DNA of 64,000 bases from Leucoraja ocellata (lineage: Eukaryota). Below, one piece after another: positions 1,096 through 52,470 of the stretch (its first letter is position 1; each line of letters opens with the position of its first letter). The stretch is from the NCBI GenBank assembly GCA_036785375.1, contig JAWMAR010000471.1, forward strand, positions 1,116,001-1,180,000, read 5' to 3'. Position numbers and translations under genes: made by a program. The notes under the pieces are model-generated. The model was not told the DNA's origin. It made no database searches and worked only from the letters and a program-made list of their open reading frames with translations.

Positions 1096-1307
1096 TGCTG
1101 TAAACCAAACTATACTAAAGAAAACTAACCTAAACGAAATTAAATCTCCACTCGGCGAGGGAACAATTCAAGGATCCATAAATAACGTTTCCATACATTT
1201 TGCAAACATGTGATGAACTACCGGAGACGGTAACTAGTTTCTGTGTGTGTCACAGTCTCCAACAGTCAATGTTAAAACAATAACTATTCCCCTGTTATTT
1301 TCCGCAG

Positions 1308-1612
1308 ATACATTTCCGCGGGTTCCCAGAGTCCGCCTCAACAATCCTCTCTTTCTGGTGACACTGCCACCTTTAACTGCGTATATTCCGGATTCTGCTC
1401 GTACACAGTACACTGGTACCGACAGTTCCCAGGGCAGGCTCTGGAATTCCTGCTCCAAAGACACACTTCAGGAAAGCAAGACGAGGAAGAGGCTGCCGAA
1501 GGTCGTATTTCTGGTTCTCTCGATCCTGCCCAGAAAATCAGTCAGTTAACGCTCTCTGAATTACTGCCGAGCGACGAGGCTGTGTATTACTGTGGGATGA
1601 GTCCGCGCATCG
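1308..1612 (+). pseudogene. Supporting TCR-delta-like V segment, copy 1 (leaderless; 1-nt deletion just after the splice acceptor)
   Basis: Acceptor ttttccgcag ends at 1307. Near-identical to 13793-14098 but has atacatttccgcg where copy 2 has attccattttcgcg (frameshift). Other frame reads ..TFNCVYSGFCSYTVHWYRQFPGQALEFLL..DEAVYYCGMSPRI. Confidence 0.85.
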
Positions 1613-1651
1613 CACAGTGGCACAGCGCAGTGAGATAGCTGTACCAAAACC
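1613..1651 (+). promoter_or_regulatory. 23-RSS (CACAGTG-23-ACCAAAACC)
   Basis: Heptamer 1613-1619, 23-nt spacer, nonamer 1643-1651, directly after the V exon. Confidence 0.92.
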
Positions 1652-1815
1652 TCAGCGTGGCGGGATACAGGCACACAGCCCTGCAGAACATCTGGGGCGC
1701 TAACCGAGAACCTCAGTGTAGTATGGATTGTTTACACGTTGCCACGGAAGGAGGGAAAGACAAAATTATAAAGATAAATTATGTTGAGACATACAGAAAC
1801 ACAATTAGTCTGGGA

Positions 1816-10280: not shown

Positions 10281-10585
10281 ACATCTGCCTGAATGGTTCA
10301 GATGGTCTACTGAACGTCAGAGAAACGTGAAAGCCACGTCAGATGTTTCACATCAGATTCCGGGCCACCAAACAAATCAGCAGGTTTAACGGACCCCGTC
10401 TCTAATTCTCCGTCTATTCGCACATCGATTGGGATTTTTTCAAAACTCTCCAGGACAACACACTCACCGAAACGAACATACGAGCTGTTGCTCCAGCTCA
10501 GTTCTCCGGGATAGGCTGCAGGATCTGTCCGGCGACCTGGGTCCTGCCTCTCGCCAAGTAAACCATTTATCCCGGAGAAGGCGCG

Positions 10586-10628
10586 ATGGGAATCCTCCTG
10601 TTGTTTGTGCTGTCATTCTGCTTACGCC
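10586..10628 (+). CDS. Leader (L1) exon of the NAR-type V gene: MGILLLFVLSFCLR
   Basis: ATG at 10586, hydrophobic signal peptide, phase-1 donor C|gtgagt at 10629, ~140 nt upstream of the V exon. Confidence 0.85.
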
Positions 10629-10771
10629 GTGAGTACTCCCACACAATGCGGGTTTAACATAAAACTACTCGCGTCCACTCCGACCTGAATTTCAAACACT
10701 CCCCGTGATGTACCCTTCAGCCATGGTTCGCCTGGAATTCCCACTCACCTCTCCCTGTGTTTAATCCACAC

Positions 10772-11064
10772 ACTCCGTCAGTCAGTCAGTGACCCAGATC
10801 CCGAATGCGGTGACTGGAAAAGAGTGTGACCCCGTCACCATCACCTGCCTTTTCCAAGAAGGTTCCATTGGCAGCTACGTATTTAATGAAGGACATTTCG
10901 TCAAGCAAGCACAACCCGGTGCTACACGGCAGCGGATCACAACAGGTGGACGGATCGTTGTGTCGAACAATAAAGTGGAAAAGACATTTACGTTGAAAAT
11001 TCTTGGTTTGAGAGTTGAGGACATGGACACATATTACTGTCGAGCTGAGTACAAGTGGAGGAGG
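10772..11064 (+). CDS. NAR-TCR-type V segment (NTCRV-like); frame open but expected splice acceptor reads CAC rather than CAG
   Basis: QSVTQIPNAVTGKECDPVTITC..GHFVKQ..RITTGGRIVVS..KTFTLKILGLRVEDMDTYYCRAEY. Canonical Ig-V cysteines, the short C'-C'' region typical of IgNAR/NAR-TCR V, an extra FR1 Cys (KEC), and an RSS immediately downstream. Confidence 0.85.
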
Positions 11065-11102
11065 CACAGTGATGGGCCTGCGCTTCGCGCAGCACAAAAA
11101 CC
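11065..11102 (+). promoter_or_regulatory. RSS with 22-nt spacer (CACAGTG-22-ACAAAAACC)
   Basis: Perfect consensus heptamer 11065-11071 and nonamer 11094-11102. Confidence 0.95.
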
Positions 11103-13242
11103 CTCACTGCACATTCTGCTAGCAACGTGAAGACGGGAGGTGAACCCACCGGGTAAACCCACGGGCCCGCTTTGTCCCGCCTGCCCTGCATTCTTGGTTA
11201 CATGCGGATGAAATGCGTGCGATTCAAACAATGGGTTTTCTCCATTTGGCGAGTGCGGCCTAATGTCCCCTTTACTGAAAATGGTGAAAACGAACTGCCA
11301 TCGAGAATGACTGACCACTCTGATGCACTACTCCAGACGGGATCCAGTTACAGAAACTGCAATCTGAAAAATGCATTCGCTGAACGTTAATCTCCTGCCC
11401 GCCCGTCTCGCCGGGCGCCTGCGGATTTGAAGTGACGTGTAGCACCGGGTAGAGCAGAACGTATCCTTCTCAAGTCCAGCGTGTGTAGGCTTGGAGTTAG
11501 CAAACGCTTCTAACATGTCAATCTCCAAAGCCACCATATCCTTCCTCAGATACGGGGCCCAAAATTGCTCGCGATATTCCAAATGTGATCAAATCAGTGC
11601 CTAAAAAACATCTACCATTAGATCCGTGTTTTTATATTCTAGTCAACTCGAAATTAATTCTAACATTTAATTTGTCTCCCTGAACGACGATTCACACTGA
11701 AAATCCACAGTTTGGAGTTCCCGCACCTACATACACAAATCCCTTTGTACCTCCATTTCTGAATCCTCTCCCCATTTAGAAAATAGAAAAGCGCCGTTAA
11801 TTCTTCCGCCAAAGTGCATGCCCGTATAGTGTGGTGTGTAGTATTCCATCTGTCACTTATTTGCCCTCCCCCCCCCACCCCCTTCCAACCTGTTCAAGGA
11901 TTTTTTCAGTCTCCATGCTTACTCTACATTACCTGCCCCATCATCTATGTTTGGCATCGTCCGCGATATCAGCCGCAAAAGCCATTAATTTCAACATCCA
12001 GATCGTAACCATACAACGGGAGAGTAGTGCACCCAACATTGACCCATTTCTCAAAGGCAGCAAGCGGAAAATATCACTTTTATTCCAATATTTTGCCCTG
12101 CAACGGAAGCCTATCCTCTGTCCAGGCTGAAACCTCATCTCTAACACCAATACTCCAATTTTAATTATCCGCTTCGCGTCCGGCACCAAGAAAACTGCAT
12201 TTCTGGCTTTCCTTTGTGTACCCTGCTTGTTACTTTCATAAAATAATTTCAACAGATTTGTGGGGCAAGAACCCCCCTTGACTAGTTGTCGCTGACTTGC
12301 AGATTTTATCCTGTGCTTCCAGATAGCACTGACCCGCATTTTTAATAATCGTTTCAAAAATCTTATCAACTATTGAAGTCATGCTAGCCGCCTTATCATT
12401 ACAACTGGCTTATGAATTTATCCCATAAAATCTATGTGATTGATCCACGCCCGCTGTGAGCGAAAGCCTGGGAAACAATCTATTTCTTACTCCAGGAAAC
12501 AGGGGGAGGTTGGCGGGAGAGTAGATGGACTGTGAGTGAAGCTGAACCCTCTGTAAACATTCCACTAACTGAAATCAAACGGCAGCTGGCAGACCTGTTG
12601 AAACGGTTGGCTGGAGGCGGAAATATGAACCGCAAGCAGCAAAAAGCGGGCATTCTAGATTAAAAACCAAAACCGTTCTTCAATTAAATTAAAGTAAAAT
12701 GTAGAAGGACGTGGCCCAGTGAAGGAAAAAAACCCACAACTCTTGATACATAGAGGGCAAAGCATTTATACCGGGTTGTGGAAATTACACTTAAAAGTTG
12801 ACCTTCCAGTTGTTAAACACAGAAGGCTGTGGAGGCCAAGTCAGGAGGAAAATAAGGCAGCGATAGATAGATTTTTGATTAGTCGAGGCGTCGCAGGTTT
12901 TGACATTGCGGAGAAGGCAGGAGAATGGGGTTCGGAGGGTGACATAGTTCAGCCATTATTGGCCTAATTACACCGTTGAACCTTGACTATATCCAGGAAG
13001 GGATACACTTCAGTCAAGCTGTGGGGAGAATGACTAGTTCTATTGTTTTAACGCCAAGAACCAATTTCAAAATGCTAGAGAACCGAGTAACATAATTTGT
13101 CTCATTCACCGGATCCCGACTCACTGAATCAGCTCCACTATTGTCCCGTGCTCGCTTTGATTGTTCCCACAGCCTGGAATATTTCCAATTTCACTTTCAT
13201 AATCAGAGTTTGACCTCGCGGATATTCGTCAGTGATTTTCTC

Positions 13243-13620
13243 CACGGTGGCACAACGGTAACGGTAGAGGTGCTGCCTAATAGCGCGTTTAGCACCAGAG
13301 ACCCGAGTCCGATCCCGACTCCGGGTGTTGGTGGTACGGAGTTTGTATGTTCTCCACATAATCTGTGTGGGTTTTCTCCGAGATCTAGGGTTTCTTCCCA
13401 CACTCCAAATACGGACAGTTTTGAAGGTTTATTGGCGCTCTATAAATGTAAATAGTCCATCGTGTGCGTAGGATAGTGTTAATGTGCGGGAATGCAGGGC
13501 GGCGCGGACTTGTGGGTCGAAGGGCCCGTTTCCGCGCTGTGTCCCCAAACTAAAGTAAACTGAACTAAACTGAACTAATGTAAACTAAACCAAACTATAC
13601 TAAAGTAAACTAACCTAAAC
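13243..13620 (+). mobile_element. tRNA-derived V-SINE-like element with (ACTAA)n-like tail
   Basis: Head cacggtggcacaacggta..gagtccgatcccgac (A/B-box-like), V-SINE core ggagtttgtatgttctcc..gggttttctccg..ggtttcttcccaca, tail taaactgaactaaac. Confidence 0.75.
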
Positions 13621-13792
13621 GAAATTAAATCTCCACTCGTCGAGGGAACAATTAAAGGATCCATAAATAACGTTTCCATATATTTTGCAAAAATGTGATG
13701 AACTACCGGAGACGGTAACTAGTTTCTGTGTGTGTCACAGTCTCCAACAGTCAATGTTAAAACAATAACTATGCCCCTGTTATTTTCCGCAG

Positions 13793-14098
13793 ATTCCATT
13801 TTCGCGGGTTCCCAGAGTCCGCCTCAACAATCCTCTCTTTCTGGTGACACTGCCACCCTTAACTGCGTATATTCCGGAATCTGCTCGTACACAGTACACT
13901 GGTACCGACAGTTCCCAGGGCAGGCTCTGGAATTCCTGCTCCAAAGACACCCTTCAGGAAAGCAAGATGAGGAAGAGGCTGCCGAAGGTCGTATTTCTGG
14001 TTCTCTCGATCCTGCCCAGAAAATCAGTCAGTTAACGCTCTCTGAAGTACTGCCGAGCGACGGGGCTGTTTATTACTGTGGGATGAGTCCGCGCATCG
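13793..14098 (+). CDS. Supporting TCR-delta-like V segment (STCRDV-like), copy 2, intact, leaderless
   Basis: Acceptor ttttccgcag| then DSIFAGSQSPPQQSSLSGDTATLNCVYSGICSYTVHWYRQFPGQALEFLL..GRISGSLD..LPSDGAVYYCGMSPRI. Has Cys23, WYRQ, YYC and an extra CDR1 Cys; no leader exon evident upstream. Confidence 0.9.
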
Positions 14099-14137
14099 CA
14101 CGGTGGCACAGCGCAGTGAGATAGCTGTACCAAAACC
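14099..14137 (+). promoter_or_regulatory. 23-RSS (CACGGTG-23-ACCAAAACC)
   Basis: Heptamer 14099-14105 (CAC retained), nonamer 14129-14137. Confidence 0.9.
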
Positions 14138-14304
14138 TCAGCGTGGCGGAATACAGGCACACAGCCCTGCAGAACATCTGGGGCGCTAACCGAGAAACTC
14201 GGTGTAGTATGGATTGTTACACGTTGCCAGGGAAGGATAAAAAAGCAAAATATTTAAAAGATAAATGGTATTGAAATTTACAGAAACACAATTAGTCTGG
14301 GAAG

Positions 14305-20578: not shown

Positions 20579-20950
20579 CGCCTCTCCGTCATCCGACACC
20601 GCATGTAGAGGACATCGGGGGCGGGGGGAAGTACTGCGCTGGGCTCCTTAGGTGGACCTGGAAGACCCAGATGGGTCAGCAGTGCCGCCCCTGGTAACCG
20701 AAGTGGAACTGGGAGCCCCGGATGGGCCAGCGGTGCTTTCCTGGGCAGCTGTGTTGGGATTTTTCGCAGCAGCCCGGCGATTGGATGCGGGCGAGTCGGA
20801 ACTACTTGCACGCATTCCCGCACTGAATGGAGATATTCTTTAAAAAGGAAAGTTTCCGCAGTCCAACGTTTGGTCAGACTTCGAACTCTCGCTGCCTCTG
20901 TCCCTCTTTGCTCCGACAAAAAACTTTTGAAAGTTCGCTTCGAAACCTCT
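18055..20950 (-). mobile_element. Degenerate Tx1/L1-like element (ORF1 remnants plus APE start), interrupted by a Penelope insertion
   Basis: MEIAVDSLTINGG..FLQEAH..GVAFL..GRLL..HFINV APE-like N-terminus at 18060-18450. Further copies at ~33900-37055 and ~54055-58995. Confidence 0.6.
18590..19372 (-). mobile_element. Penelope-like element 3' part, GIY-YIG endonuclease
   Basis: C..C..C zinc motif and NLI.CIRCSRCQLIYIGETK.RLGDRFAEH..G.LHPAGMNIE; flanking duplicated sequence matching (a)cctgccgaaa. Confidence 0.88.
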
Positions 20951-21311
20951 CAGCGTCGGAGCAGAGATTGACACCACCCCGTGGGGCCTGGCGACCGTGG
21001 ATCTACGGAGAGAAGGTGACGTTTCGGGTCGAGACCCTTCTGCAAACTGATGTGGGGGTGGGGGTGCGGGAAGAAGAATGGAAGAGGCGGAGACAGTGGG
21101 CTGTGAGGGAGCTGGGGAGGGGAGGGGAGGGAGGGAGAAAGCAAGGACTACCTGAAATTGGAGAAGTCGATGTTCATACCGCTGGGGTGTAAACTACCCA
21201 AGCGAAATATGAGGTGCCGCACCTCCAATTTGCGGTGGGACTCACTATGTTCTGGGCCTCCCCCATGGCCAGAATGAGTTACGTAGATTAAGGCACAACA
21301 ATAAGTCAGTT

Positions 21312-21355
21312 TCCCTCATGGTCCAGAGGTCCGGATTCGATTCCCGTTCAGTGAG
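21312..21355 (+). pseudogene. tRNA-Glu-like relic lacking the anticodon arm (copies at ~3110-3152 and ~53657-53701 on the minus strand)
   Basis: tccctcatggtccagagg (acceptor stem/A-box-like) joined directly to ccggattcgattcccgttcag (T-arm/B-box-like). Confidence 0.45.
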
Positions 21356-22541
21356 CCCCATACTGTTGGCAGAGTTGACATATGGACACCTGGAGGAGTG
21401 TATCATCACTTCATTTATTAACTGTTTGTTTGTGAACGACATATTGCACGAGCAATGTTTGTTTTTAGTACAATATATCTTCATTTTAATTCATAAATGA
21501 CAGAATATTTTATTTTATTCACAGTTTGCGAGGGAAGAGGAGAAATAGGTAGATACAAAGTTAACCCCACCAGCCCCAATTTTGTAGTATCAGGGGAACA
21601 TTATGCGGCTTGCCGCCTCTTGAGTGCAAATGAACAGCAGGCAGTATCTCTACAGGAAAACGATAGATGACGTTTCTGGTCAGGATCCTTCTTCCGTCTG
21701 AAAGTAGGGCGAGGCCACTGGATGCAAGAATAGGCCAGAACGAGACAGGGAATGCAACGCGTGACTAGGAAATGAAGGAGCCCATAATGGCCCATTGTTG
21801 GCTGTGGAATAAGTGGTCACACACAACTACAAAGATGCGAGCAGTACAACTAGTGTGATGACTATGTTGGAGGAGAGGGTGAGAGAAAGGGAGTCAAGCG
21901 ACCTACGAGATGCTGTTCCTTCATTTTGTGCGTGGCCTCGCTCTAGCAGATGAGGAGGACAACGACAGAATGGTTTATATGGGAATGCGTAGAGGTGTTA
22001 AAATGTTTGCCCACCGGGGAACGTAAAGGCCAATGTGGAAATTGATTTATTACCGTACATGGGAGCCACGGTGTCACAGAGTCATAGAGTGATACAGTGT
22101 GGTATAAGGACCTTCGGCCCAACTCGCCCACACCGGCCAACAATATCCCAGATACACCAGTCCCACTTGCGTGCGCTTGGTCCATATCCCTCCAAATCTC
22201 TCCTATCCAAGTAACTTTCTAACTGTTGCTTAAACGACGGGATAGTCCCAGGCACAACTACCTCTTGTCGCAGCTTGTTCCGTACATCCACCACCCTTTG
22301 TATGAAAATGTTTCCCCACCGAATCCTCTTAAATATGTTTCCCTTCTCCTTGACCCTATGTCCTTTGGTCGTAGATTCACTGGGCAAACGACTCTGTGCA
22401 TCTAACCGATATATTCATCTCATGATTTTGTATTTCTGGCACTCCTCACCTATAGCTTTACTTTCGATAGAGGTCTTCCGCATACAGAAGGTATTTTAAA
22501 CACGGTATCTGTATGAAACTTTACACAATCCACATCATCCG

Positions 22542-23305
22542 GTAAATTTACATGGTAAATGCTAGGGAATTGAAGAATGCAGGTGAACAGATGGATCTGG
22601 GAATAACTGTGCACAGTTCCCTGAAAGTGGAATCGCATGTAGATAGGGTGGTAAAGAAAGCTTTTGGGGTGCTGGCCTTTATAAATCAGAGCATTGAGTA
22701 TAGAAGTTGGGATGTAATGTCAACATTGTACAAGGCATTAGTGAGGCCAATTCTGGAGTATGGTGTACAATTTTGGTCGCCTAATTATAAGAAGGATGTC
22801 AACAAAATAGAGAGAGTACAGAGGAGATTTATTAGAATGTTGCCTGGGTTTCAGCAACTAAGTTACAGAGAAAGGTTGAACAAGTTAGGGCTTTATTCTT
22901 TGGCGCGCAGAAGGTTATGGGGGGACATGATAGAGGTCGTTAAAATGATGAGAGGGATAGACAGAGTTGACGTGGATAAGCTTTCCCCACTGAGAGTAGG
23001 GAAGATTCAAACAAGGGGACATGACTTGAGAATTAAGGGACTTAAGTTTAGGGGTAACTTGAGGGGAACTTCTTTACTCAGAGAGTGGTGGCTGTGTGGA
23101 ATAACCTTCCACTGAAGGTGGTGGAGGCAGGTTCGTTATTATCATTTAAAAATAAATTGGATAGTTATATGGACGGGAAAGGAATGGAGGGTTATGGTCT
23201 GAGCGCAGGTATATGGGACTAGGGGTGAATACGTGTTCGGCACGGACTAGAAGGGTCGAGATGGCCTGTTTCCGTGCTGTAATTGTTATATGGTTATTTG
23301 GTTAT
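22542..23305 (+). mobile_element. CR1 LINE 3' fragment with ATCCG target-site duplication
   Basis: ORF 22552-23115 is CR1 RT C-terminus; empty site catcatccgctgctaaaac at ~5700 and ~16625. Confidence 0.92.
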
Positions 23306-23686
23306 ATCCGCTGCTAAAACAGCAGATTATCGTCAAACCGAAAACCTCGTCAATGAGCAATGATACGTTTTTTCAATTATTAAAGGAAATCATCAAACAA
23401 CACGATGCACCTATTCAACTGAAAATCTTCACTCGTTTTGAAAACAATATGTTCCAGGCATGTGTATACATATTCTTGAAACGACAGAAGTTGAATGATT
23501 GAACGGGGCACATGGGAATGCGTACAAGAGGTGAGACTCAATTGAGCCGATGAACCTCCGAAGCAGCTGGGCGTGTCCGACAGGGCGAATGGACATAAAA
23601 TGTCCACACATTAAATGCGGTATTTCCACATAAACCCTGCAGCAAACCAACGCATGAAGCTCAGCTGGTCATTCGTTTTTGTTATA

Positions 23687-25967
23687 TTACTTTAACTTAC
23701 ACTTTAACGATTTAAATATTTTTCCAATGCAAATGATCGGATATGTTAGCACACGGAACAGCTCCTCTCTGAACTTGCTCTGGGTCACCGTGTAAATGGC
23801 CGTGTTGGTGCAGGAGCTCAGCAGCTGAAGCATATTTCCAACCTTTTCAAATTCTTCTGCGGGGTTTTTCCATGCCTTGAACACAAACAGTTTCCAACTT
23901 CGAACCGCAATAAAATGTGCGACACTTGTGGCCCAGAGCAGGATGAAGGAGCTCGAGATTGCCAGAAGTAAAACGACCGACCGTCTGCGGTTCACCATCT
24001 CCTGGTCTTTCTTTCTCTCCCCACCGCTGAGGTCCCAGAGGTTCCTGCGGACCCGGCTGGCCACGTAAATACGTCTGACGGTGAGCGCGTTAAACAACAA
24101 AATCAGGCAGAATGGAATCACCGGGGTGAACAACTGTTCGGCCCAAGAGAACACCAACCATTCGGCATGAACGTAAAAATATACGAGTTTGAGGCAGCCC
24201 AGTTCTCCACCCATTCCGAGATAAGAAGTGTATGCAAAGGGCAGGGGTAGATTTTTGAGGCAGATGACCGGGCTCACCGTCAGGATAACAATCGTCGCGG
24301 TTCTCTCGGTACAATATTTGGTTTTCATGTTCTGAGTAGAAATCGCAACAAAGCGATCAAAGGTGAAAGCGACCGTGAACCACACAGAACAATTCACCGT
24401 GACCGATGCCAGGTAGATTGTTATTTTGCACACAGGAGTGTAGGGCAAGGAGGCATGCCACCAATACATATCAGCAATCCGGTGAAATATCACCTCACTG
24501 AAAATCACAGAGAGGTCCGCCGTCGCCATGGCTACCATGTAACGAGTGATGCACTTGGAGAGGCCGCACTTGCCACGGGACAGGGTCACAATCGCCATCA
24601 GATTCACTGGGAAAGAATGAAAACAGAAACTGATTAATTGTGTGGTGGGTGGGACCAGACGCAGTCATTTAAACCTGTGTCGCCAGTGGTAGAGACTGTT
24701 TATTTAACGAATCAGTGTTTGGGTCAATCATCCGTCAATCGTTTGCCAGAAAGATGTTCATTCAGTAAATTATTAAATTTCTGATTAGCAAAATTAGTGG
24801 GATTGCCTTATGTAGAAAATAACTACATAAAGATGAAAATATTGGTACAAGAGGCAATCCGATTTTAGAAATCAGGAATTTAATCTGCAAATGGATAACA
24901 TACCGTTTACCAAGATTAGTGGGAGTGCCTTTTGTACTAATCTTCACAACATTATGCCAACCGTTTGATGTTGATGAAACATATAGAATATTTTCAAGCG
25001 GTGAGTCAGTGTCTCTAAAAAATTGAATTAACAATCCAAAGTACCGTCTATCAAATCAGAATTAAGAGGGGATCCCCCCCAATATAAAATATCTGATTTC
25101 AATTTCATAATGGGACATTCAAATGCGCAGTGTCGTTTTTATTGCTGAGAAGTGGGCAACTTTTGAGTCGGGGCATGTAGTCAATCGCGGCCTGGATTAA
25201 CGCGGTCTGTTTCCCATTGGGCCTTCGAGAATGCATCTCCCAACACGGGGCCAAGGAAAGGGATTCAGTGAAGCGCAGCAAATATAATTACAACCCCCCT
25301 TCGCAAACACGGCTAACAACATAACGGGCAGGTATTTTCTGCCGAGCAGCGGGCGGGCCTGTGTACTGCACCTGACAAGAGCCAATGGTGGTGTATCTCA
25401 GTGGCGCAAGTAATATCTCTGGAGGACATAGATAGGCGACCTAGTAAATTCAATACGGGCATTGATTTTAGTAAAAAGCCGGGAGGGCTACATTTTTGCC
25501 AGCTTCATTGAGCGGCATCCATCACATATACCAACGCGCTGCCTCGCTCCGGAGGTGGATATCGCTTACTTTATTTTAGTTTAGGAATACAGCGCGAAAA
25601 CACGACCACCGGCCCACCTAATCCGCACCGATCGCGCACACTCACAACAGCCTACACACACTAGGTACAATTTATTTTACTTTTATGGAGCGTGGGAGCA
25701 AATCGAAGATCTCGGGGAAAACCCAAAAGGATACGGGGAGAACGTACAGACTCCGTACAGAGAAGCGCTGTAAGACAGTTATTCTAGCGCTGTACCAGCG
25801 TGCCGCCCGAACCCCCGCTGGGCTACTCGCTATGTCCTCTTAACCTTTAATATGCTGCGCTCTTCAAACATGAGATGTGCCGACAATTACCTACCAGGTA
25901 TACCGATTGCTGCCAGAATCGGATAATACACAAGTCCTATTTTTACCTCGATCGGAATACCGTGCAT
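23687..25967 (-). CDS. Class A GPCR, GPR139/GPR142-like, copy 2; exon1 25967-25895, exon2 24606-23687; 330 aa
   Basis: Intact 7TM ORF; exon 1 MHGIPIEVKIGLVYYPILAAIGIP|G gtaggt; acceptor ttctttcccag; TATAAA at 26047-26052. Confidence 0.9.
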
Positions 25968-26159
25968 TTTAATGCGACGGTCCAGGCGATCAGTCCTTGT
26001 GCTGCCGCTCAGCGGTTGTCAGCGAAACAAACACATATCTGGCATATTTATAATGTGAATAAATGGAAAAACAGGCAACGAGATTACATCCCTGTGGACA
26101 TTACTTACACACTTCTGAACAAACATCTACTGTTTTCCGTGTAATACTAAAAATCACCT

Positions 26160-29100
26160 TAGTCTTAAACTGTGTCCCCTGGTTCTGCACGCCCCCAACA
26201 TCGGGAACATGGTTCGTGACTCTAGCGTGTCCAAACCCTTAATAATCGTATATGTTTAAATACGATCCCCTCTCATTCTCAGTATACAAGCTCAGTCGCT
26301 CCATTCTCTCAGCATGTAACAGCCCCACCATTCCGGGAATTAACCGAGTGAACGAACGCTGCATTCCCTCAGTAGCAAGACTGTTGGACCGGCTAGATGC
26401 AGGAAAATTGTTCCAGATATAGACAGTCCAGAAACAGATGTCCCAGTTTAAGGATAGGTGGTAGGCCATTAAGAAACATAGAAACATAAAATTCGATGCC
26501 GGAGTAGGCCATTCGGTCCTTCGAGCCAGAACCGTCATTCAATGTGATCATGGCAGATCATCAAAAATCAGTACCCCGTTCCTGTTTATTCCCCATATCC
26601 TACGATTCCTTTAGCCCCAAGAGCTAAATCTAACTCTCTCTTGAAACATCCAGTGAATTGTCCTCCACTCTATTCTGTGGCAGAAAACTCCACAGATTCA
26701 CAACTCTCTGGGTGAAATAGAATTTCCCTCATCTGAGTCCAAAATTACCTATCCTTATTCTTAAACGTTGACCCCCTGTTCTGGACACCCCCAACATCGG
26801 GAACATGTTTCCTGCATCTAGCCCATCCAACCCTTTTAGAATTGTATGTTTCTATAAAATCCCTCTCATCCTTCAAAATGCCTGTGAATACAAGCACACT
26901 CAACCCATTCTTTCATCATATGTCAGTCCCGCCATCGCGGGAACTAATCTGGAGAACCGATGCTGCACTTCCTCAATAATAATCAAGTCCTTCCACAAAT
27001 TAGGAGACCAAAATCATTCGCAAATGCGGTCTCAACAGGGCCCAAAACCACTTAGGACTGAGATAAGGAAAATCTATTTCACCCAAACAGTTGTGAATCG
27101 GTGGAATGCTCTACCACAGAAGGCAATGGAGGGCAATTCAGTGGAAGATTTCACGAGAGAGTTAGATTTAGCTCTTAGGGATAATTGAAACAAGGGATAG
27201 AAACATAGAAACATAGAAAATAGGTGCAGGAGGAGGCCATTGGGCCCTTCGAGCCTGCACCGCCATTCGATATGATCATGGCTGATCATCCAACTCAGTA
27301 TCCCATCCCAGCCTTCTCTCCATACCCCCTGATCCTTTTAGCCACAAGGGCCACATCTAACTCCCTCTTAAATATAGCCAATGAACTGGCCTCAACTACC
27401 TTCTGTGGCAAGGACTTCCACAGATTCACCACTCGCGGTGTAAAACATGATTTTCTCATCTCGGTCCTAAAAGACTTCCCTCTTATCCTTAAACTGTGAC
27501 CCCTAGTTCTGGACTTCCCCAACATCGGGAACAATCTTCCTGCATCTAGCCTGTCCAACCCCTTAAGAATGCTGTAAGTTTCTATAAGATCCCCCCTCAA
27601 TCTTTTGAATTACAGCGTGTACAAGCCGAGTCTATCCAGTCTTTTTTCATATGAAAGTCCTGCGATTCCAGGAATCAGTCTGGTGAACCTTCTCTGTACA
27701 CCCTCTATGGCAAAATTTTATTTCCTCAGATTAGGAGACCAAAACTGTACGCAATACTCCAGGTGTGGTCTCACCAAGACTCTGTATAACTGCAGTAGAC
27801 ACTCCCTACTCTTATACTCAAAACGTTATGGGGGGAGAAAGCAGGAACGGGGTACTGATTTTAAATAGAAACATCGAAACATAGAAAAATAACTGCAGGA
27901 GGAGGGTATATGGCCCTTCGAGTCAGCACCGCCATGCATATTGATCGTGGCTGCTCATCCACTATCGGTAACGCGTGCCTGCCTCCTCATGTGTCTTGAT
28001 TCTCCCAGCCCCAATAGCTCTATCTCCCTCTATTTTCATTTCATCAAGTGAATTGGCCTCCATCGCCCTTTGTGACAGAATTCCCCATATTCACAACTCT
28101 CTGGGTGAAAAGATTGTTCTCATCTCAATTTTAAATGCCCTCCCCTTTACCCTTAGACGATCGACCTTGGTTCTGGACTCCCATAGCAGTTGCAAAAAAA
28201 AATCCTGCATCTAGCGTGACCAGTCCTTTTATAATTGTTTCTGTTTCCACAAGGCGCCCTCTCATCGTTCTAAATTCCAGTGAATATATGCCCAATCTTT
28301 CTATTCTTTCCTCTTATGAGTCCCGCCATACCGTTGGTTACCCTTGTGAACCACGCTGCACTCCCTCCATAGCAAGGATTTCCTTCTCCAAATTGGGTGA
28401 CCAAAACTGCACACAATACTGCAGATGTTGTCTCACCAAGGTCCTGCACAACTGCAGAGGGACCTGTACTCCTATGCGCAAATCCTCACGTTATGAAGGC
28501 CAACATGCCATTAGCTTTCTTCACTACCTGGTGAACCTGAATGTTTGCATTAAGTGACTGGTGGACAAGGACACCCACGTCTCGTCGCACATCCCTTTTT
28601 CCCCAAATCTGACACCATTGAGATAATACTCACACACGCGTGAATGTGTGTGAATGTGCGTGAGTGTTTGGTGGTGGTCGGAGGGGCCGTAGGCGCAGAT
28701 TAGCAGCGACGCTTCCGTCAATCTGCCCCAGGGCAGCTGTGGTTACAGAAGTAGATCACCACCACCGAGTGTGACTGTGGAGTGAATGAATAATGCGATG
28801 TAAAGCGCCTTGAGTATCTAGAAAGGCGCTATATAAATTCCATCCATTATTATTATTATTAATAATCTGCTTCCATTCTCTTGCCGTCACAGTGGATAAC
28901 CTCACATTTACCTACATTATGCAGCATCTGCCATGAATCTGCCCACTCAGTCAACCTGTCCAGGCCACCTTACATCCATTTCGCATCCTCTTCGCAGTTC
29001 ACACTACATCCCGGCTTTGTGTCATCTGCAAATTTGCTCGTGTTACTTTTAAATCCATCAGATGTATCATTCATCTATATTGTCAATAGCTGCGGCCCCT

Positions 29101-30980
29101 GCATCGAGCCTTGCGGCATTCTACTCGCCACTGCCTGCCATTCTGACAGGTAAATCCTTCATCCATTTTACTTGTCACATTCTCAAAACATTCCAGAAGA
29201 TTTGTCAAGCAGCATTTCCGCTTCATAAATCCATGCTGACTTGGACCAATCTTTTAATTGTGTACAAACGCGCCGTTATTACGTCTTTGATAATTGACTC
29301 TAGCATCTTCCCCAGCTCCGATGTCAGGCCAACTGTTCTCTAATTTCCCGTTTTCGCTCTCGCTCCTTTCTTGAAAAGTGGGATAACATCAACTACTCTC
29401 CAATCCACACGAACTGATCCTGAATCTATTGAACATTGGAAATGATCACCAATACGTCCACGATTTCTAGAGCCACGACCTTGAGTCCCCTGGGATGTTG
29501 ACCGTCAGATCCTAGGGATTTATCAGCCTTCAGTCCCATCGGTTTACCCAATACTATGGCCCAATGCAAATTTCATCCAGTTTCTCCGTCTGTCTTATGG
29601 ACAATAGACAATAAACAATAGGTGCAGGAGTAGGCCATTCGGCCCTTCGAGCCAGCACCGCCATTCAATATGATCATGACTGATCATCCCCAATCAGCAC
29701 CCCGTTCCTGCCTTCTCCCCATATCCCCTGACTCCGCTATTTTAAGAGCCCTATCTAGATCACTCTTGAAAGCATCCAGAGAGCCCGCCTCCACTGCCAT
29801 CTGAAGTAGAGAATTCCATAGACTCACCACTCTCTGTGAGAAAAAGTGTTTCCTCGTCTTCGTTCTAAATGGCTTACTCCTTATTCTTAAATTGTGGCCC
29901 CTGGTTCTGGACTCCCCCAACATCGGGAACATGTTTCCTGCCTCTAGCGTGTCCAGGCCCTTAACTATCTTATATGTTTCAATGAGATACCCTCTCATCC
30001 TTCTAAACTCCAGAGGGTACAAAGCCAGCTGCTCTATTCTCTCAGCATATGAGAGTCCCGCCATCCCGGGAATTAACCTTGTAAACCTACGCTGCACTCC
30101 CTCAATAGCAAGAATGTCTTTCCTCAAATTTGGGGACCAAAACTGCACACAATACTCCCGATGTGGTCTCGCTAGGACTCTGTAATACGTCTCACTAGTC
30201 TTCTAGTACATATGGGAGATGTTTGTGTCTTAGTTAGCGAAAACGGAACTAAAGTACATGTTCAACTCTTCTGGCATTTCCTTGTTTCCCATAATAATAT
30301 CAACAGCTTCTGCTGTTAAGGGACCCACATCTGCCTTTCCTAATCTTTTTCTCTTAACATACCTAAATGTGTTTTTACAGCCCTTCTTTATATTCCTGGC
30401 GAGCTTACCTTTGTACTTCATCTTTTCACACCGTATTGCCCTTTCTGTTACTTCTGATGTTTCCCAATCATCTAGCTTCCCGCCATTCTTTGCTATTTTA
30501 TTCATCTTTTCGTTTAGTTTTATACCGTTCACAACATCCCTTGTCAGCCACGGTTGCCTCTTACTCCCCTTAGAATATTTCTTCATCTTTGGACTGAAAT
30601 GATCCTGCATCTTCTGCATAATGGACAGAAATTCCTGCTATTGCTGTTTCTTCGTCATTACTGTTTGAATCATTTTCCAGTCGACCTTGGCCAGGTCCTC
30701 TCCCATGCCGTAATTCCCCTTTGTTCAACCGCAACACTGTCTATTCGGATTTAACTTTCTCCCTCTCAAATTGCAGATTAAAACTTATCATATGATGGTC
30801 ACTACCTCCTTGCGGTTCCTTACCTAGATTCCCCTTACTAAATTTGGTGGATTAGACAACACTAAATCCAGAATTGCCTTCTCTTGTATGCTCCAATGCA
30901 AGTTGCTTTAAGAATCCATCTCAGAAGCACTCTACAAACTCCCTTTCTTGTGTTCCAGAACCAACCTGATTTCAGTCAGT
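26160..30980. mobile_element. Nested CR1 fragments (mostly minus strand) with an L2-tailed SINE at ~28630-28862
   Basis: CR1 motifs throughout; SINE ends gtaaagcgccttgagtatctagaaaggcgctatataa..(TTA)n. Confidence 0.8.
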
Positions 30981-31355
30981 CCCTCTGTCAACCCTCGCAA
31001 GGGCGTCCATTTCACCCCTCACCAACAGAGCTACCCCACCTGCAGTGCCCAAATGCCTGGATCATATTGAATGTCAGTTCTGTCTCGAAAGGAGAATGAC
31101 CTACGCCTACAATTATTTTCTGTGTTTCTGTGTTTCTCCATCCCTGCTGGTGACTGCATTCATTGCAATCTGTATGTTACCTTTCACTGGATCATTGACA
31201 GTCGGAATAATACCGGTACCCAGCCCGACTGGGGCCTCGCGTTGATCTCTCGTCGATGTTATAAGCCGCGGTGCAGCAATTCCCACCACCTTTGGCCGTC
31301 CAGCCTCTCATCAAACAAACAAACAAACAGGCCTTGCACTGGCCTTCCTGCATTA

Positions 31356-31461
31356 TTAACGCTATCTGTAGTACTGCCGGGCGACGAAGCTTTGTATTAC
31401 TGTGGGATGAGTCCGCGCATCGCATAGTGGCACAGCGCAGAGAGACAGCTGTACCAAAACT
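31356..31461 (+). pseudogene. 3' fragment (FR3-CDR3) of a supporting V with a dead RSS (CATAGTG-23-ACCAAAACT)
   Basis: LTLSVVLPGDEALYYCGMSPRI matches the 3' end of 13793-14098; heptamer 31423-31429 has CAT instead of CAC. Confidence 0.85.
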
Positions 31462-31529
31462 TCAGCGTGGCGGAATACAGGCACACAGCATTTACTTAAA
31501 GCTCGTGCGGCCTCGGCAGGGCTCGTAGC

Positions 31530-32299
31530 ATAATCAAGGGGGTAGATCTAAGGGGGTAGAGGAACTGAAAGACATTTCCATTAGGCGAGAAATAGTATTG
31601 GGTAGGCTAATGGGACTGAAGGATGATAAATCCCCAGGACCCGATGGTCTGCATCCCAGGGTGCTCAGGGAGGTGGCCCCAGAAATAGTGCTCGCATTGG
31701 TGATCATTTTCCAATGTTCAATAGATTCAGGATCCGTTCCTGTGGATTGGAGGATAGCTAATGTTATCCCAGGAAAGGGGCGAGAGAGAAAACGGGGAAT
31801 TACAGACCAGCTAGCCTGACTTCGGCGGTGGGAAATATGCTGGAGTTAATTATTAAATAGGTAATAACGGGGCATTTGGATAGCAGTAAAAGGATTAGTC
31901 CAAGTCAACATGGATCTATGAAAGGGAAATCATGCTTGACTAATCTTCTGGAGTTTTTTGAGGATGTGACAAGTAAAATGGAAGAAGGGGTGCAAGTGGA
32001 TGTAGTGTATCTACACTTTCAGAAAGCATTTGATAAGGTCCCGCACGGGAGACTGGTGACTAAAATTGGAGCACATGGTATTGGGGGTAGGGTGTTGACA
32101 TGGATAGAAAATTGGTTGTCAGACCGGAAGCAAAGAGTAGGAGTGAACGGTACCTTTTCAGAATGGCAGGCAGTGGCGAGTGGAGTGCCGCAAAGCTCCG
32201 TGTTGGGGCCGCAAATGTTTACCATATATATTAATGATTCGGAAGAGGGAATTAGGAACAACACTAACAAGTTTGCGGATGACACAACGCTGGGTGGCA
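31530..32299 (+). mobile_element. CR1 LINE ORF2 fragment, ending at N-gap 32300-32499
   Basis: KSPGPDGLHPRVLRE, KSCLTNLLEFFE, FQKAFDKVPH, FADDT motifs. Confidence 0.9.
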
Positions 32300-32786
32300 N
32301 NNNNNNNNNNNNNNNNNNNNNNNNNNNNNNNNNNNNNNNNNNNNNNNNNNNNNNNNNNNNNNNNNNNNNNNNNNNNNNNNNNNNNNNNNNNNNNNNNNNN
32401 NNNNNNNNNNNNNNNNNNNNNNNNNNNNNNNNNNNNNNNNNNNNNNNNNNNNNNNNNNNNNNNNNNNNNNNNNNNNNNNNNNNNNNNNNNNNNNNNNNNG
32501 CCGAATGGCCTAATTACACGTTGAATCTTGACTATATCCAGGAAGGGATACACTTCAGTCAAGCTGTGGGGAGAATGACTAGTTCTATTGTTTTAACGCC
32601 AAGAACCAATTACAAAATGCTAGAGAACCGAGTAAGATAATTTGTCTCAATCACCGGATCCCGACTCACTGAATCAGCTCCACTATTATTCCGTGCTCGC
32701 TTTGACTGTTCCCACAGCTAGAATATTTCCAATTTCACTTTCATAATCAGAGTTTGGCCTCGCGGATATTCGTCAGTGATTTTCTC

Positions 32787-33165: not shown

Positions 33166-33334
33166 AATTAAATCTCCACTCGTCGAGGGAACAATTAAAG
33201 GATCCATAAATAACGTGTCCATACATTTAGCAAACATGTGATGAACTACCGGAGACGGTAACTAGTTTCTGTGTGTGTCACAGTCTCCAACAGTCAATGT
33301 TAAAACAATAACTATTCCCCTGTTATTTTCGCAG

Positions 33335-33629
33335 ATTCCATTTCCCAGAGTCCGCCTCAACATCCTCTCTTTCTGGTGACACTGCCACCCTTAACTGCGT
33401 ATATTCCGGAATCTGCTCGTACACAGTACACTGGTACCGACAGTTCCCAGGGCAGGCTCTGGAATTCCTGCTCCAAAGACACACTTCAGGAAGCAAGATG
33501 AGGAAGAGGCTGCCGAAGGTCGTATTTCTGGTTCTCTCGATCCTGCACAGAAAATCAGTCAGTTAACGCTCTCTGAAGTTCTGCCGAGCGACGGGGCTGT
33601 GTATTACTGTGGGATGAGTCCGCGCATCG
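33335..33629 (+). pseudogene. Supporting TCR-delta-like V segment, copy 3 (9-nt in-frame deletion plus two 1-nt deletions)
   Basis: Acceptor ttttcgcag at 33334. Relative to copy 2 it lacks ttcgcgggt and has caacatcc (vs caacaatcc) and caggaagc (vs caggaaagc). Confidence 0.85.
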
Positions 33630-33668
33630 CACAGTGGCACAGCGCAGTGAGATAGCTGTACCAAAACC
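33630..33668 (+). promoter_or_regulatory. 23-RSS (CACAGTG-23-ACCAAAACC)
   Basis: Heptamer 33630-33636, nonamer 33660-33668. Confidence 0.92.
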
Positions 33669-33746
33669 TCAGCGTTGCGGGATACAGGCACAGCACTGCA
33701 GAACATCTGGGGCGCTAACCGAGAACCTCAGTGTAGTATGGATTGT

Positions 33747-41959: not shown

Positions 41960-43600
41960 GAAACATAGAAAATAGGTGCTGGAGGAGGCCATTCGGCCAC
42001 ACGAGCCAGCACCGCCACTCATTGTGATCATGGCTGATCGCCCCCTATCAATAACCCGTGCCTGCCTTCTCCCCATATCCCTTGAATCCACAAGCCCCCT
42101 AGAGCTCTATCTAACTCTCTCTTAAATCCATTCAGTGACTTAGCCTCCACTGCCCTCTGCGGCAGGGAATTCCATAAATTCACAACTCTCTGGGTGAAAA
42201 CGTGTTTTCTCACCTCAGTCTTAAATGACCTCCGCTTTATTCTAAGATTGTGGCCCCTGGTACTGGACTCGCCCAACAATAGGAACAGTTTTCCTGCATC
42301 TAGCTTGTCCAGTCCTTTATAATTGTATATGTTCCTATAAGACCCCCCTCATCCTTCTAAACTCCAGTGAATACAAGCCTCGCCTTTTCAATCTTTCCTC
42401 ATATGACAGTCCCGCCATCCCAGGGATCAATCTCGTGAACATACGCTGCACTGCCTCAATCACAAGGATGTCCTTCCTCAAATTAGGAGACCAAAACTGT
42501 ACACAATGCTCCATATATGGTCTCACCAGAGCCCTATACAACTGCAGAAGAACCTCCATACTCTTATACTGAAATCATTTTGTTATGAAGGCCAACATTC
42601 CATTAGCTTTCTTCACTGCCTGCTGTACCTGTAAGCCAACTTTCAGTGACCGGTGTACAAGGAGTACCTAACCCCATTGAGATAATAATCTGCCCCCTTG
42701 TTTTTGCCGCCAAAGTGGATAACCTCACATTTATCTATATTATACTGCATCTGTCACGCATCTGTCCACTCACTCAACCTGTCCAGGTCATCCTGCAAAC
42801 TCCTAACATCCTCTTCACAGTTCACACTGCCACCCAGCGTTGTGTCATCCGCAAACTTGTCAGTGTTGTTCCTAATTCCCTCTTCCAAATCATTAATATA
42901 TATGGTAAACATTTGCGGCCCCAACACGGAGCTTTGCGGCACTCCACTCGCCACTGCCTGCCATTCTGAAAAGGAACCGTTCACTCCTACTCTTTGCTTC
43001 CGGTCTGACAACCAATTTTCTATCCATGTCAATACCCTACCCCCAATACCATGTGCTCCAATTTTAGTCACCAGTCTCCCGTGCGGGACCTTATCAAATG
43101 CTTTCTGAAAGTGTAGATACACTACATCCACTTGCACCCCTTCTTCCATTTTACTTGTCACATCCTCAAAAAACTCCAGAAGATTAGTCAAGCATGATTT
43201 CCCTTTCATAGATCCATGTTGACTTGGACTAATCCTTTTACTGCTATCCAAATGCCCCGTAATTACCTATTTAATAATTAACTCCAGCATATTTCCCACC
43301 GCCGAAGTCAGGCTAACTGGTCTGTAATTCCCCGTTTTCTCTCTCGCCCCTTTCCTGGGATAACATTAGCTATCCTCCAATCCACAGGAACGGATCCTGA
43401 ATCTATTGAACATTGGAAAATGATCACCAATGCGAGCACTATTTCTGGAGCCACCTCCCTGAGCACCCTGGGATGCAGACCATCGGGTCCTGGGGATTTA
43501 TCATCCTTCAGTCCCATTAGCCTACCCAATACTATTTCTCGCCTAATGAAAATGTCTTTCAGTTCCTCTACCCCCTTAGATCTACCCCCTTGATTATGCT
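41960..43600 (-). mobile_element. CR1 LINE 3' half
   Basis: ORFs 42028-43529 with RT motifs; 3' tail agaaacatagaaa at ~41960. Confidence 0.9.
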
Positions 43601-43665
43601 ACGAGCCCTGCCGAGGCCACGCGAGCTTTAAGTAAATGCGGTGTGCCTGTATTCCGCCACGCTGA

Positions 43666-43770
43666 AGTTTTGGTACAGCTGTCTCTCTGCGCTGTGCCAC
43701 TATGCGATGCGTGGACTCATCCCACAGTAATACAAAGCTTCGTCGCCGGCAGTACTACAGATAGCGTTAA
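43666..43770 (-). pseudogene. Inverted 3' fragment of a supporting V with a dead RSS (CATAGTG)
   Basis: Reverse complement of 31356-31461; heptamer 43698-43704, nonamer 43666-43674. Confidence 0.85.
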
Positions 43771-44149
43771 TAATGCAGGAATGCCAGTACAAGGCCTGTT
43801 GTTTGTTTGTTTGATGAGAGGCTGGACGGCCAAAGGTGGTGGGAATTGCTGCACCGCGGCTTATAACATCGACGAAAGATCAACGCGAGGCCCCAGTCGG
43901 GCTGGGTACCGGTATTATTCCGACTGTCAATGATCCAGTGAAAGGTAACATACAGATTGCAATGAATGCAGTCACCAGCAGGGATGGAGAAACACAGGAA
44001 CACAGAAAATAGCTGTAGGCGTAGGTCATTCTCCTTTCGAGACAGAACTGACATTCAATATGATCCAGGCATTTGGGCACTGGAGGTGGGGTAGCTCTGT
44101 TGGTGAGGGGTGAAATGGACGCCCTTGCGAGGGTTGACAGAGGGACTGA

Positions 44150-48960: not shown

Positions 48961-49172
48961 CAGGGGGGACAGTTCAAGACTGGTGATTTTTAGTATTACA
49001 CGGAAAACAGTAGATGTTTGTTCAGAAGTGTGTAAGTAATGTCCACAGGGATGTAAGCTCGTTGCCTGTTTTTCCATTTATTTGCATTATAAATATTCCA
49101 GATATTTGTTTGTTTCGCTGACAACCGCTGAGCGGCAGCACAAGGAGTGATCGCCTGGACCGTCGCATTAAA

Positions 49173-51326: not shown

Positions 51327-51704
51327 TATAACAAAAACGAGTGACCAGCTGGGCTTCATGCGTTGCTTTGCTGCAAGGTTTATGTGGAAATACCGCATTT
51401 AATGTGTGGACATTTTATGTCCATTCGCCCTGTCGGACACGCCCAGCTGCTTCGGAGGTTAATGGGCTCAATTGAGGCTCACCTCTTGTACGCATTCCCA
51501 TGTGCCCCGTTCAATCAACTTATGTGTTTTCACGAATATGTATACATATGCCTGGAACATATTGTTTTCAAAACGAGTGAAGATTTTCAGTTGAATAGGT
51601 GCATCGTGTTGTTTGATGATTTCCTTTCATCATTGAAAAAAACGTATCATTGCTCATTGACGAGGTTTTCGGTTTGAGGATAATCTGCTGTTTTAGCAGC
51701 GGAT

Positions 51705-52470
51705 ATAACCAAATAACCATATAACAATCACAGCACGGAAACAGGCCATCTCGACCCTTCTAGTCCGTGCCGAACACGTATTCACCCCTAGTCCCACATA
51801 CATGCGCTGAGACCATAACCCTCCATTCCTTTCCCGTCCATATAACTATCCAATTTATTTTTAAATGATAATAACGAACCTGCCTCCACCACCTTCAGTG
51901 GAAGCTTATTCCACACAGCCACCACTCTCTGAGTAAAGAAGTTCCCCCTCATGTTACCCCTAATCTTCAGTCTCTTAATTCTCAAGTCATGTCCCCTTGT
52001 TTGAATCTTCCCTACTCTCAATGGGAAAAGCTTATCCACGTCAACTCTGTATATCCCTCTCATCATTTTAAAGACCTCTATCATGTCTCCCCTTAACCTT
52101 CTGCGCTCCAAAGAATAAAGCCCTAACTTGTTCAACCTTTCTCTGTAACTTCGTTGCTGAAACCCAGGCAACATTCTAGTAAATCTCCACTGTACTCTCT
52201 CTATTCTGTTGACATCCTTCCTATAATTAGGCGACCAAAATTGTACACCATACTCCAGAATTGGCCTCACCAATGCCTTGTACAATGTTGACATTACATC
52301 CCAACGTCTATACTCAATGCTCTGATTTGTAAAGACCAGCACACCAAAAGCTTTCTTTACCACCCTATCTACATGAGATTCCATTTTCAGGGAACTGTAC
52401 ACAGTTATCCCCAGATACCTCTGTTCACCTGCATTCTTCAATTCCCTTGCCATTTACCATGTAAATTTAC
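51705..52470 (-). mobile_element. CR1 LINE 3' fragment (mirror of 22542-23305)
   Basis: ORF 51788-52453 is CR1 RT C-terminus. Confidence 0.9.

What the first reader, a model, noticed from the sequence alone, without database searches (positions are those of the whole stretch)
10586..14137. NAR-TCR-like two-V cassette with complementary non-canonical cysteines
Seen: leader + NAR-type V (FR1 Cys in GKECDP, short C'-C'' region, F where the canonical Trp lies, 22-RSS). About 2.7 kb downstream lies a leaderless TCR V with a CDR1 Cys (YSGICSY), its own acceptor and a 23-RSS. Established: the doubly rearranging shark NAR-TCR has a NAR V on a leaderless supporting V-delta, with extra cysteines proposed to form an inter-domain disulfide. 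Inference: this is such a cassette.
Basis: partly seen in the sequence, partly recalled or inferred. Interest (0 to 1): 0.7.

Follow-up and report, generated by a model that had tools for sequence, protein, structure and literature searches.

The report
Broken skate NAR-TCR cassette, pre-joined siblings
This is an apparently broken copy of a known shark-and-ray T-cell receptor gene unit that stacks an antibody-like domain on an ordinary one, and its closest sibling copies carry gene pieces already fused in the assembled genome, likely by the enzyme that normally cuts and joins them only in immune cells acting in the germline.

Summary
The two V exons, both extra cysteines and both RSSs are as described. 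They form a NAR-TCR cassette in a skate TCR alpha/delta locus, one of 18 compared. All 17 other cassettes hold D and J sequence after the NAR V; here about 1.4 kb with D and J is deleted. The NAR V splice acceptor reads AC, against AG in 15 of 15 readable paralogs. So this copy is likely a pseudogene; reads did not confirm or refute the lesions. The more interesting result lies next door: 4 paralogs have D fused to J and 3 have V fused to D. Both RSSs are cleanly gone, and the D-J joint keeps intact coding ends plus a 2-nt palindromic insert. The same D-J joint appears in 1 of 3 public contig sets laid. The window's V belongs to the D-J-joined clade. This looks like RAG acting in the germline on a TCR gene. 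The papers I could read report germline-joined TCR only in marsupials and a newt; three key shark papers were not held. An unchecked scan note reports a pre-joined NAR-TCR cassette in a shark.

The parts
10586..10628 (+). Leader exon of the NAR-type V (43 nt, phase-1 GT donor)
10770..10771 (+). NAR V splice acceptor, AC instead of AG; the next two AGs (10781, 10785) are out of frame, the third (10789) is in frame and drops 6 codons
   Evidence: 15 of 15 other readable paralogs have AG; 2 of 18 cassettes were not read by the script
10772..11064 (+). NAR-type V exon, open frame, F at the canonical Trp position
10825..10827 (+). Non-canonical FR1 (A-B loop) cysteine codon
   Evidence: present in 18 of 18 NAR Vs
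11065..11102 (+). V 3' RSS: perfect heptamer, 22-bp spacer, perfect nonamer
11423..11449 (+). Decayed remnant of the D 5' RSS; the heptamer has 3 substitutions and has lost the bases nearest the coding end that RAG needs
   Evidence: compared with paralogs; the homologous signal of an older family
11449..11450 (+). Junction of a 1.2-1.4 kb deletion that removes D and J; its left end lies at the D 5' heptamer border
   Evidence: found once in G000
13791..14098 (+). Leaderless supporting TCR V with intact AG acceptor (phase 1) and open frame
13882..13884 (+). Non-canonical CDR1 cysteine codon of the supporting V
   Evidence: read in 11 of 14 supporting Vs, the other 3 being frameshifted before CDR1
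14099..14137 (+). Supporting V 23-RSS (one heptamer mismatch private to this copy, one nonamer mismatch shared by the family)

Best explanation
The stretch is a NAR-TCR cassette of a skate TCR alpha/delta locus that lacks its D and J and has a non-AG V acceptor in this assembly, so it is likely a pseudogene, and it likely descends from a subfamily whose D and J were fused in the germline, probably by RAG. Shown from sequence: intact paralogs run leader, NAR V with 22-RSS, about 391 bp, one D between two 12-type RSSs, 378 bp, J with 23-RSS and GT donor, then a leaderless supporting V with 23-RSS. Established from the literature: each V domain is made by its own V(D)J rearrangement. Inferred: the NAR VDJ exon splices onto the rearranged supporting V, and the two extra cysteines would link the domains. 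Shown: four paralogs have D fused to J and three have V fused to D, with the intervening RSS pair and spacer gone and the outer RSSs kept, so one somatic join would finish the NAR domain. Inferred: these were two separate RAG events in germ cells, later multiplied by tandem duplication; the window's copy then lost the D-J block and decayed.
For: Hallmarks of PMC1845163 met. 19 NAR V and 20 supporting-V matches in G000, mostly as tandem pairs. Conventional TCR Vs, a D with 12/23 RSSs, a long J array and a TCR-constant-like exon (E 0.002) lie on the same scaffold. D and J are present in 17 of 17 other cassettes: 10 split, 4 D-J joined, 3 V-D joined. D-J joint: the D matches a split D at 15 of 16 nt to its last base; the first 25 nt of J match a split J at 23 positions from its first base; 2 nt lie between, GC in one copy (the palindrome of the D end) and GT in three (one CpG transition away); the D-J frame is open in 4 of 4. 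These are the criteria used for RAG-made germline joints in PMC2193156 (passages). One contig of run X3, depth 139.9, carries the same GC joint. The window V groups with the four D-J-joined Vs at 98/97 support, and the three V-D-joined Vs form their own 100/100 group. The leader intron is retained in 6 of 6 joined copies the script read, so these are not retrocopies.
Against: Neither lesion of the window copy was confirmed in reads: the lay was swamped by repeats and listed no row or piece at 10771 or 11450. The deletion junction occurs once in G000. The window copy has 9 private transversions and 4 indels in 897 columns, against 1-3 and 0-4 in its four siblings, which fits decay but also poor consensus. 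The scaffold has many gaps and inverted duplications. The D-J joint was listed in only 1 of 3 contig sets, as one contig with 30 letters on its shorter side, and that run may be the assembly's own sample. The V-D joint was listed in 0 of 3, and its parent V end is unknown, so P or N bases cannot be read there. A 2-nt palindrome arises by chance about 1 time in 16. The four D-J-joined Vs are not a well-supported clade excluding the window V (72/74), so the window copy could descend from a split sister. C-delta was not found.
Confidence: 0.75

Rival explanations
1. The cassette is an intact, working NAR-TCR unit, and the missing D-J and AC acceptor are assembly errors.
For: Both V frames are open and the V RSS is perfect. 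The junction occurs once in G000. This copy has an excess of private transversions. The assembly shows frameshifts in 3 of 14 supporting Vs, plus gaps and inverted duplications.
Against: The junction lies about 3 kb from the nearest N run. The lesions are several and of different kinds: a 12-nt intron deletion, the acceptor change, the heptamer decay, the 1.4 kb deletion and a supporting-V heptamer change.
Confidence: 0.12
2. The cassette has been turned into an ordinary two-domain TCR-delta V: with the NAR V acceptor and the J donor gone, the leader exon would splice straight onto the intact supporting V, which rearranges to D-delta and J-delta and carries a free CDR1 cysteine.
For: Leader donor and supporting-V acceptor are both phase 1 and give an open frame. 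A newt TRD segment is reported to borrow a neighbouring leader (PMC12698447 passages).
Against: Cryptic AGs lie 10-18 nt behind the broken acceptor. The supporting V heptamer has a private mismatch. An unpaired cysteine would be exposed (inference).
Confidence: 0.06
3. The joined siblings are not RAG products of the germline: they arose by ordinary deletion, or are lymphocyte rearrangements captured in the assembly.
For: Ordinary deletions do occur in this array (the window copy itself). The V-D joint has no outside support.
Against: The same joint stands in 4 (D-J) and 3 (V-D) copies whose V regions differ by 1-3% and which lie in tandem on two scaffolds. The D-J breakpoints fall exactly on both coding ends, with a palindromic insert. 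Both joints obey the 12/23 rule.
Confidence: 0.05
4. The first V belongs to an IgNAR antibody cluster or a non-rearranging IgSF gene rather than to a TCR.
For: Its best single-domain PDB matches are VNARs. Two of five thorny-skate models carry automatic Ig heavy-chain names.
Against: A C1 profile found no Ig constant exon in 601 kb around the array, only one TCR-constant-like exon. The J is followed by a leaderless TCR-type V, 29-35% identical to the five conventional Vs of the locus. The V carries an RSS.
Confidence: 0.02

Closest known systems
NAR-TCR of nurse shark and elephant shark (PMC1845163, PMC12227049, PMC3149040: passages; Criscitiello 2006 not held)
   Same: NAR-type V with leader, A-B-loop Cys and no canonical Trp; leaderless supporting V-delta with CDR1 Cys; separate rearrangement for each V; location in the TCR alpha/delta locus.
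   Different: This copy lacks D and J and has a broken acceptor. Seven paralogs are partly joined in the genome, which none of the passages read describes for NAR-TCR.
Germline-joined Ig genes of cartilaginous fish (nurse shark NS4 light chains, PMC2193156 passages; VD-J and VDJ heavy-chain clusters, PMC6795676 passage)
   Same: RSSs fully excised, coding ends intact or lightly trimmed, P-type insert, joined and split genes side by side in one family.
   Different: Here the target is a T-cell receptor cassette, with two different partial joins (V-D and D-J) in one array.
Marsupial TCR-mu V-mu-j (PMC7615758, PMC3457774: passages)
   Same: Three-domain TCR chain with a germline-joined element.
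   Different: In marsupials the supporting V is fully joined, most likely by retrotransposition. Here the outer NAR domain is partly joined, the leader intron is kept, and the supporting V stays split.
Pre-joined TRD V-J of the newt Pleurodeles waltl (PMC12698447 passages)
   Same: Germline-joined segment in a TCR-delta locus.
   Different: A single complete V-J in a locus without D segments; not a NAR cassette and not a partial join.

Membership tests
NAR-TCR cassette | N-terminal V related to IgNAR V, with its own leader | tested here: met
   feature from PMC1845163
NAR-TCR cassette | Cys in the A-B loop of the NAR V and no canonical Trp | tested here: met
   Cys codon in 18 of 18 NAR Vs and in 5 of 5 thorny-skate models
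NAR-TCR cassette | Supporting TCR V without a leader | tested here: met
   None between 11105 and 13790. The same scan flagged 2 of 14 supporting Vs, 14 of 18 NAR Vs and 3 of 5 conventional Vs, so it misses some real leaders.
NAR-TCR cassette | Cys in CDR1 of the supporting V | tested here: met
   11 of 14 paralogs read in frame, 3 frameshifted upstream
NAR-TCR cassette | Own D and J for the NAR domain (first of two rearrangements) | tested here: not met
   Absent in this copy; present in 17 of 17 other cassettes
NAR-TCR cassette | Spliceable NAR V exon | tested here: not met
   AC acceptor; AG in 15 of 15 readable paralogs; not confirmed in reads
NAR-TCR cassette | Position in the TCR alpha/delta locus | tested here: met
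   Conventional Vs, 12/23 D, J array and a TCR-constant-like exon on the same scaffold; labels alpha and delta assigned from recalled motifs and layout
NAR-TCR cassette | Expressed on C-delta as a three-domain chain | tested here: inconclusive
   C-delta not located; see Tried and rejected for the RNA runs
NAR-TCR cassette | Inter-domain disulfide between the two extra cysteines | not testable with these tools
   Called putative in PMC1845163; the fold tools return no coordinates; no job sent
RAG-type germline-joined gene (sibling cassettes) | Both facing RSSs and the spacer DNA fully excised | tested here: met
   D-J joint removes 378 bp, V-D joint about 391 bp; no heptamer remnant read
RAG-type germline-joined gene (sibling cassettes) | Coding ends intact or trimmed, with P/N additions | tested here: met
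   D-J: both ends intact plus a 2-nt palindrome in 1 of 4 copies, one transition away in 3 of 4. V-D cannot be read because the parent V end is unknown.
RAG-type germline-joined gene (sibling cassettes) | Inherited rather than somatic | tested here: met
   Same joint in diverged tandem copies on two scaffolds; D-J joint in 1 of 3 public contig sets, V-D joint in 0 of 3
RAG-type germline-joined gene (sibling cassettes) | Not a retrocopy (introns kept) | tested here: met
   153-155 nt leader intron in 6 of 6 joined copies read, the seventh not read by the script; J donor kept
IgNAR cluster | Ig constant exons following J | tested here: not met
   No Ig C1 hit among 5249 ORFs of C471:996001-1597627 with a profile of 18 C1 domains from this genome

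The most novel reading that the evidence does not exclude
RAG has acted at least twice in the skate germline on a T-cell receptor gene, making heritable V-D and D-J pre-joined NAR-TCR cassettes that were amplified and are still used, each needing one somatic join and fixing half of CDR3; the window's deletion, which starts at the D signal border, is a third, failed germline RAG event.
Probability: 0.3. Interest if true: 0.72.

Novelty: new variant of a known kind. Interest (0 to 1): 0.46.

Why it matters
The cassette itself is a known system and this copy looks dead. The siblings matter more. RAG activity in germ cells has been argued from shark antibody genes (PMC2193156). [quoted passage not shown] Here split, V-D-joined and D-J-joined versions of one TCR cassette sit side by side at 84-94% identity, with readable coding ends. 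That makes germline RAG action on TCR loci datable and testable, and predicts NAR-TCR chains with a partly fixed CDR3, a handle on a receptor whose ligands are unknown.

Tried and rejected
Laying runs on window 10560-14200: repeats crowded the tables, so neither lesion was tested. No listed run holds half of the stretch's words (best 0.40), below the 0.51 that other fetched G000 DNA shares with it; this fits other animals or species lacking this copy, or assembly error, and was not used as evidence. No RNA holder was listed. Two RNA runs of unknown tissue, read at about 5 and 1 in 100, put no reads on V, D or J; uninformative. Homolog search with the supporting V at similar lengths found nothing at E <= 1e-10. 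C-delta was sought by ORF listing, motifs and a C1 profile and not found; the scaffold has gaps near the D. A J-like reading at about 13240 was rejected as the start of a high-copy repeat (depth). No convincing cryptic RSS was seen by eye at the right end of the deletion, so a RAG origin of the deletion is left open. The CDR1-Cys regex count (16) was dropped because it included a cassette without a supporting V; translations were used. One inverted NAR V cut by a gap (C471:1095612) was left out of the 18 cassettes. No fold or complex job was sent: no coordinates are returned and a V-V pass would be expected by likeness. Criscitiello 2006, Ott 2021 and Deiss 2019 were not held and may describe joined NAR-TCR segments. 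The one held supplement of PMC3964593 gave no hit for five terms.

Full report
OBSERVATION. The window is G000:C471:1116001-1180000. The first V's best single-domain PDB matches are shark VNARs. The second scores as a V-set domain at E 6.8e-14 and is 29-35% identical to five conventional TCR Vs of the same scaffold, against 24% to the first V. Four RSSs of this quality occur in the window; 40 Markov controls gave a mean of 0.025. No leader-like exon lies between the Vs, though the scan missed leaders for 2 of 5 conventional Vs.

FAMILY. PMC1845163 (passages) defines NAR-TCR V by a leader, an A-B-loop Cys and loss of the canonical Trp, and the supporting V-delta by loss of the leader and a CDR1 Cys; it calls the inter-domain disulfide putative. 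All four sequence features are met. The five named relatives are two-V gene models of the thorny skate at 78-82% identity, all five with both cysteines, so the animal is most likely a skate. G000 holds 19 NAR V and 20 supporting-V matches. Downstream on the same scaffold lie conventional TCR Vs, a D with 12/23 RSSs, a long J array and one TCR-constant-like exon at E 0.002; no Ig constant exon was found in 601 kb. C-delta was not located.

I compared 18 cassettes, leaving out one inverted V cut by a gap. Ten are split. In the eight of the main family the layout is V with 22-RSS, 390-392 bp, one 15-16 nt D, 378 bp, J with 23-RSS and GT donor; two older-family copies have the same order. The window copy has no D or J. 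Against its closest paralogs 1.2-1.4 kb is missing at 11449/11450, and the left end sits at the border of the D 5' heptamer, which itself has three substitutions. The V acceptor reads AC where 15 of 15 readable paralogs have AG, and the next two AGs are out of frame. As assembled it cannot make a NAR domain. Limits: the junction occurs once in G000; the copy carries 9 private transversions and 4 indels in 897 columns, more transversions than its siblings; the scaffold has gaps and inverted duplications; and the read lay did not reach either lesion. I put assembly error at about 0.12.

PRE-JOINED SIBLINGS. Four cassettes (C471:1031071, C471:1044127, C2754:19414, C2754:4823) have D fused to J. 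Three (C471:1004439, C471:1019948, C2754:30370) have V fused to D. In each the facing RSS pair and spacer are gone and the outer RSSs remain, so one 12/23-compatible join is left. In the D-J joint the D matches a split D at 15 of 16 nt to its last base, and the first 25 nt of J match a split J at 23 positions from its first base. Two bases lie between: GC in one copy, the palindrome of the D end, and GT in three, one CpG transition away. The frame through D and J is open in 4 of 4. PMC2193156 (passages) uses complete RSS excision and P region as the signs of RAG-like germline joining. The V-D joint is identical in 3 of 3 copies but cannot be parsed, since the parent V end is unknown. V regions sharing a joint differ by 1-3% and lie in tandem, so the joints predate duplication; C2754 may be a second haplotype of part of C471, which would leave at least two loci of each kind. 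Laying runs on a split cassette showed the same GC joint in one contig of run X3 (depth 139.9, 30 letters on the shorter side), not in X1 or X14; the V-D joint was listed in none. X3 may be the assembly's own sample. The window V groups with the four D-J-joined Vs (98/97) and the V-D-joined Vs form a separate group (100/100), so there were two separate joins. That the window copy itself once carried the D-J join is likely but not shown.

MECHANISM. Shown: anatomy, lesions as assembled, joints, tree. Established: NAR-TCR uses separate rearrangements for its two V domains. Inferred: splicing of the NAR exon to the supporting V, the disulfide, RAG as the author of the joints, their use in T cells, and pseudogene status. 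Unexplained: why the deletion starts at the D signal border.

COMPARISON AND NOVELTY. The cassette type is known. Germline-joined Ig genes are well known in cartilaginous fish. For TCR, PMC7615758 (passages) names marsupial TCR-mu as the only case and ascribes it to retrotransposition; PMC12698447 (passages) adds a newt TRD V-J. Nine searches (listings and abstract starts) and passages of PMC3457774, PMC5931798, PMC12227049, PMC6795676, PMC3149040 and PMC3964593 (one supplement file) showed no joined NAR-TCR segments. The three most relevant shark papers were not held, so absence from print is not established. An unchecked scan note on another genome, e1-9506562, reports a pre-joined NAR-TCR cassette in a shark; my reading was recorded before that look-up.

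VERDICT. Observation confirmed; interpretation partly supported. A likely dead copy of a known cassette, inside an array that holds an apparently unreported variant: two kinds of partly germline-joined TCR cassette. Interest 0.46.

Noticed in passing
window 1276-1654: Supporting V of the preceding cassette with a 23-RSS at 1613; frameshifted near its start in this assembly. Its NAR V, D and J lie just before the window (C471:1111915-1113281).
   Followed up: partly
window 33304-33671: Orphan supporting V with small deletions and a 23-RSS at 33630, just after an N run at 32300-32499; no NAR V upstream.
   Followed up: partly
window 31356-31489 (+) and 43638-43770 (-): Two 3' fragments of a supporting V with a decayed RSS, one in each arm of an inverted duplication.
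   Followed up: partly
window 20814-32299 against 42828-54199: Inverted duplication of about 11 kb at 96-97% identity, one arm ending at an N run; real or an assembly effect.
   Followed up: no
G000:C471:1111915 and 1217086: Two NAR V regions 100% identical, 105 kb apart and across gaps; recent duplication or a haplotype placed twice.
   Followed up: no
G000:C471:824331-829594 and 912163-917531 (minus strand; L078, L079): An older NAR-TCR family, about 59% identical in the V region, with canonical D heptamers; one copy open, one frameshifted.
   Followed up: partly
G000:C471:1232196-1241628: Two NAR V-D-J blocks in tandem before one supporting V; the first V has extra cysteines in CDR1 and at its 3' end, the second a damaged leader donor.
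   Followed up: no
L046:3760-3800 and paralogs: The D 5' RSS of the main family is weak (2 heptamer mismatches, about 5 of 9 nonamer matches) yet conserved; the NAR D uses an IgH-like 12/12 layout while the locus D at C471:1366947-1366961 is 12/23.
   Followed up: partly
G000:C471:1365400-1597627: The D, a frameshifted-looking J and the J array switch strand at 200-N gaps, and much of the J array appears twice in inverted form.
   Followed up: no
G000:C4490:17006-17378 and C1681:112472-112844: Supporting-V copies at 87% identity with no NAR V, D or J in the stretches fetched.
   Followed up: partly
G000:C471:1277121: A conventional TCR V that also has a Cys at the end of CDR1.
   Followed up: no
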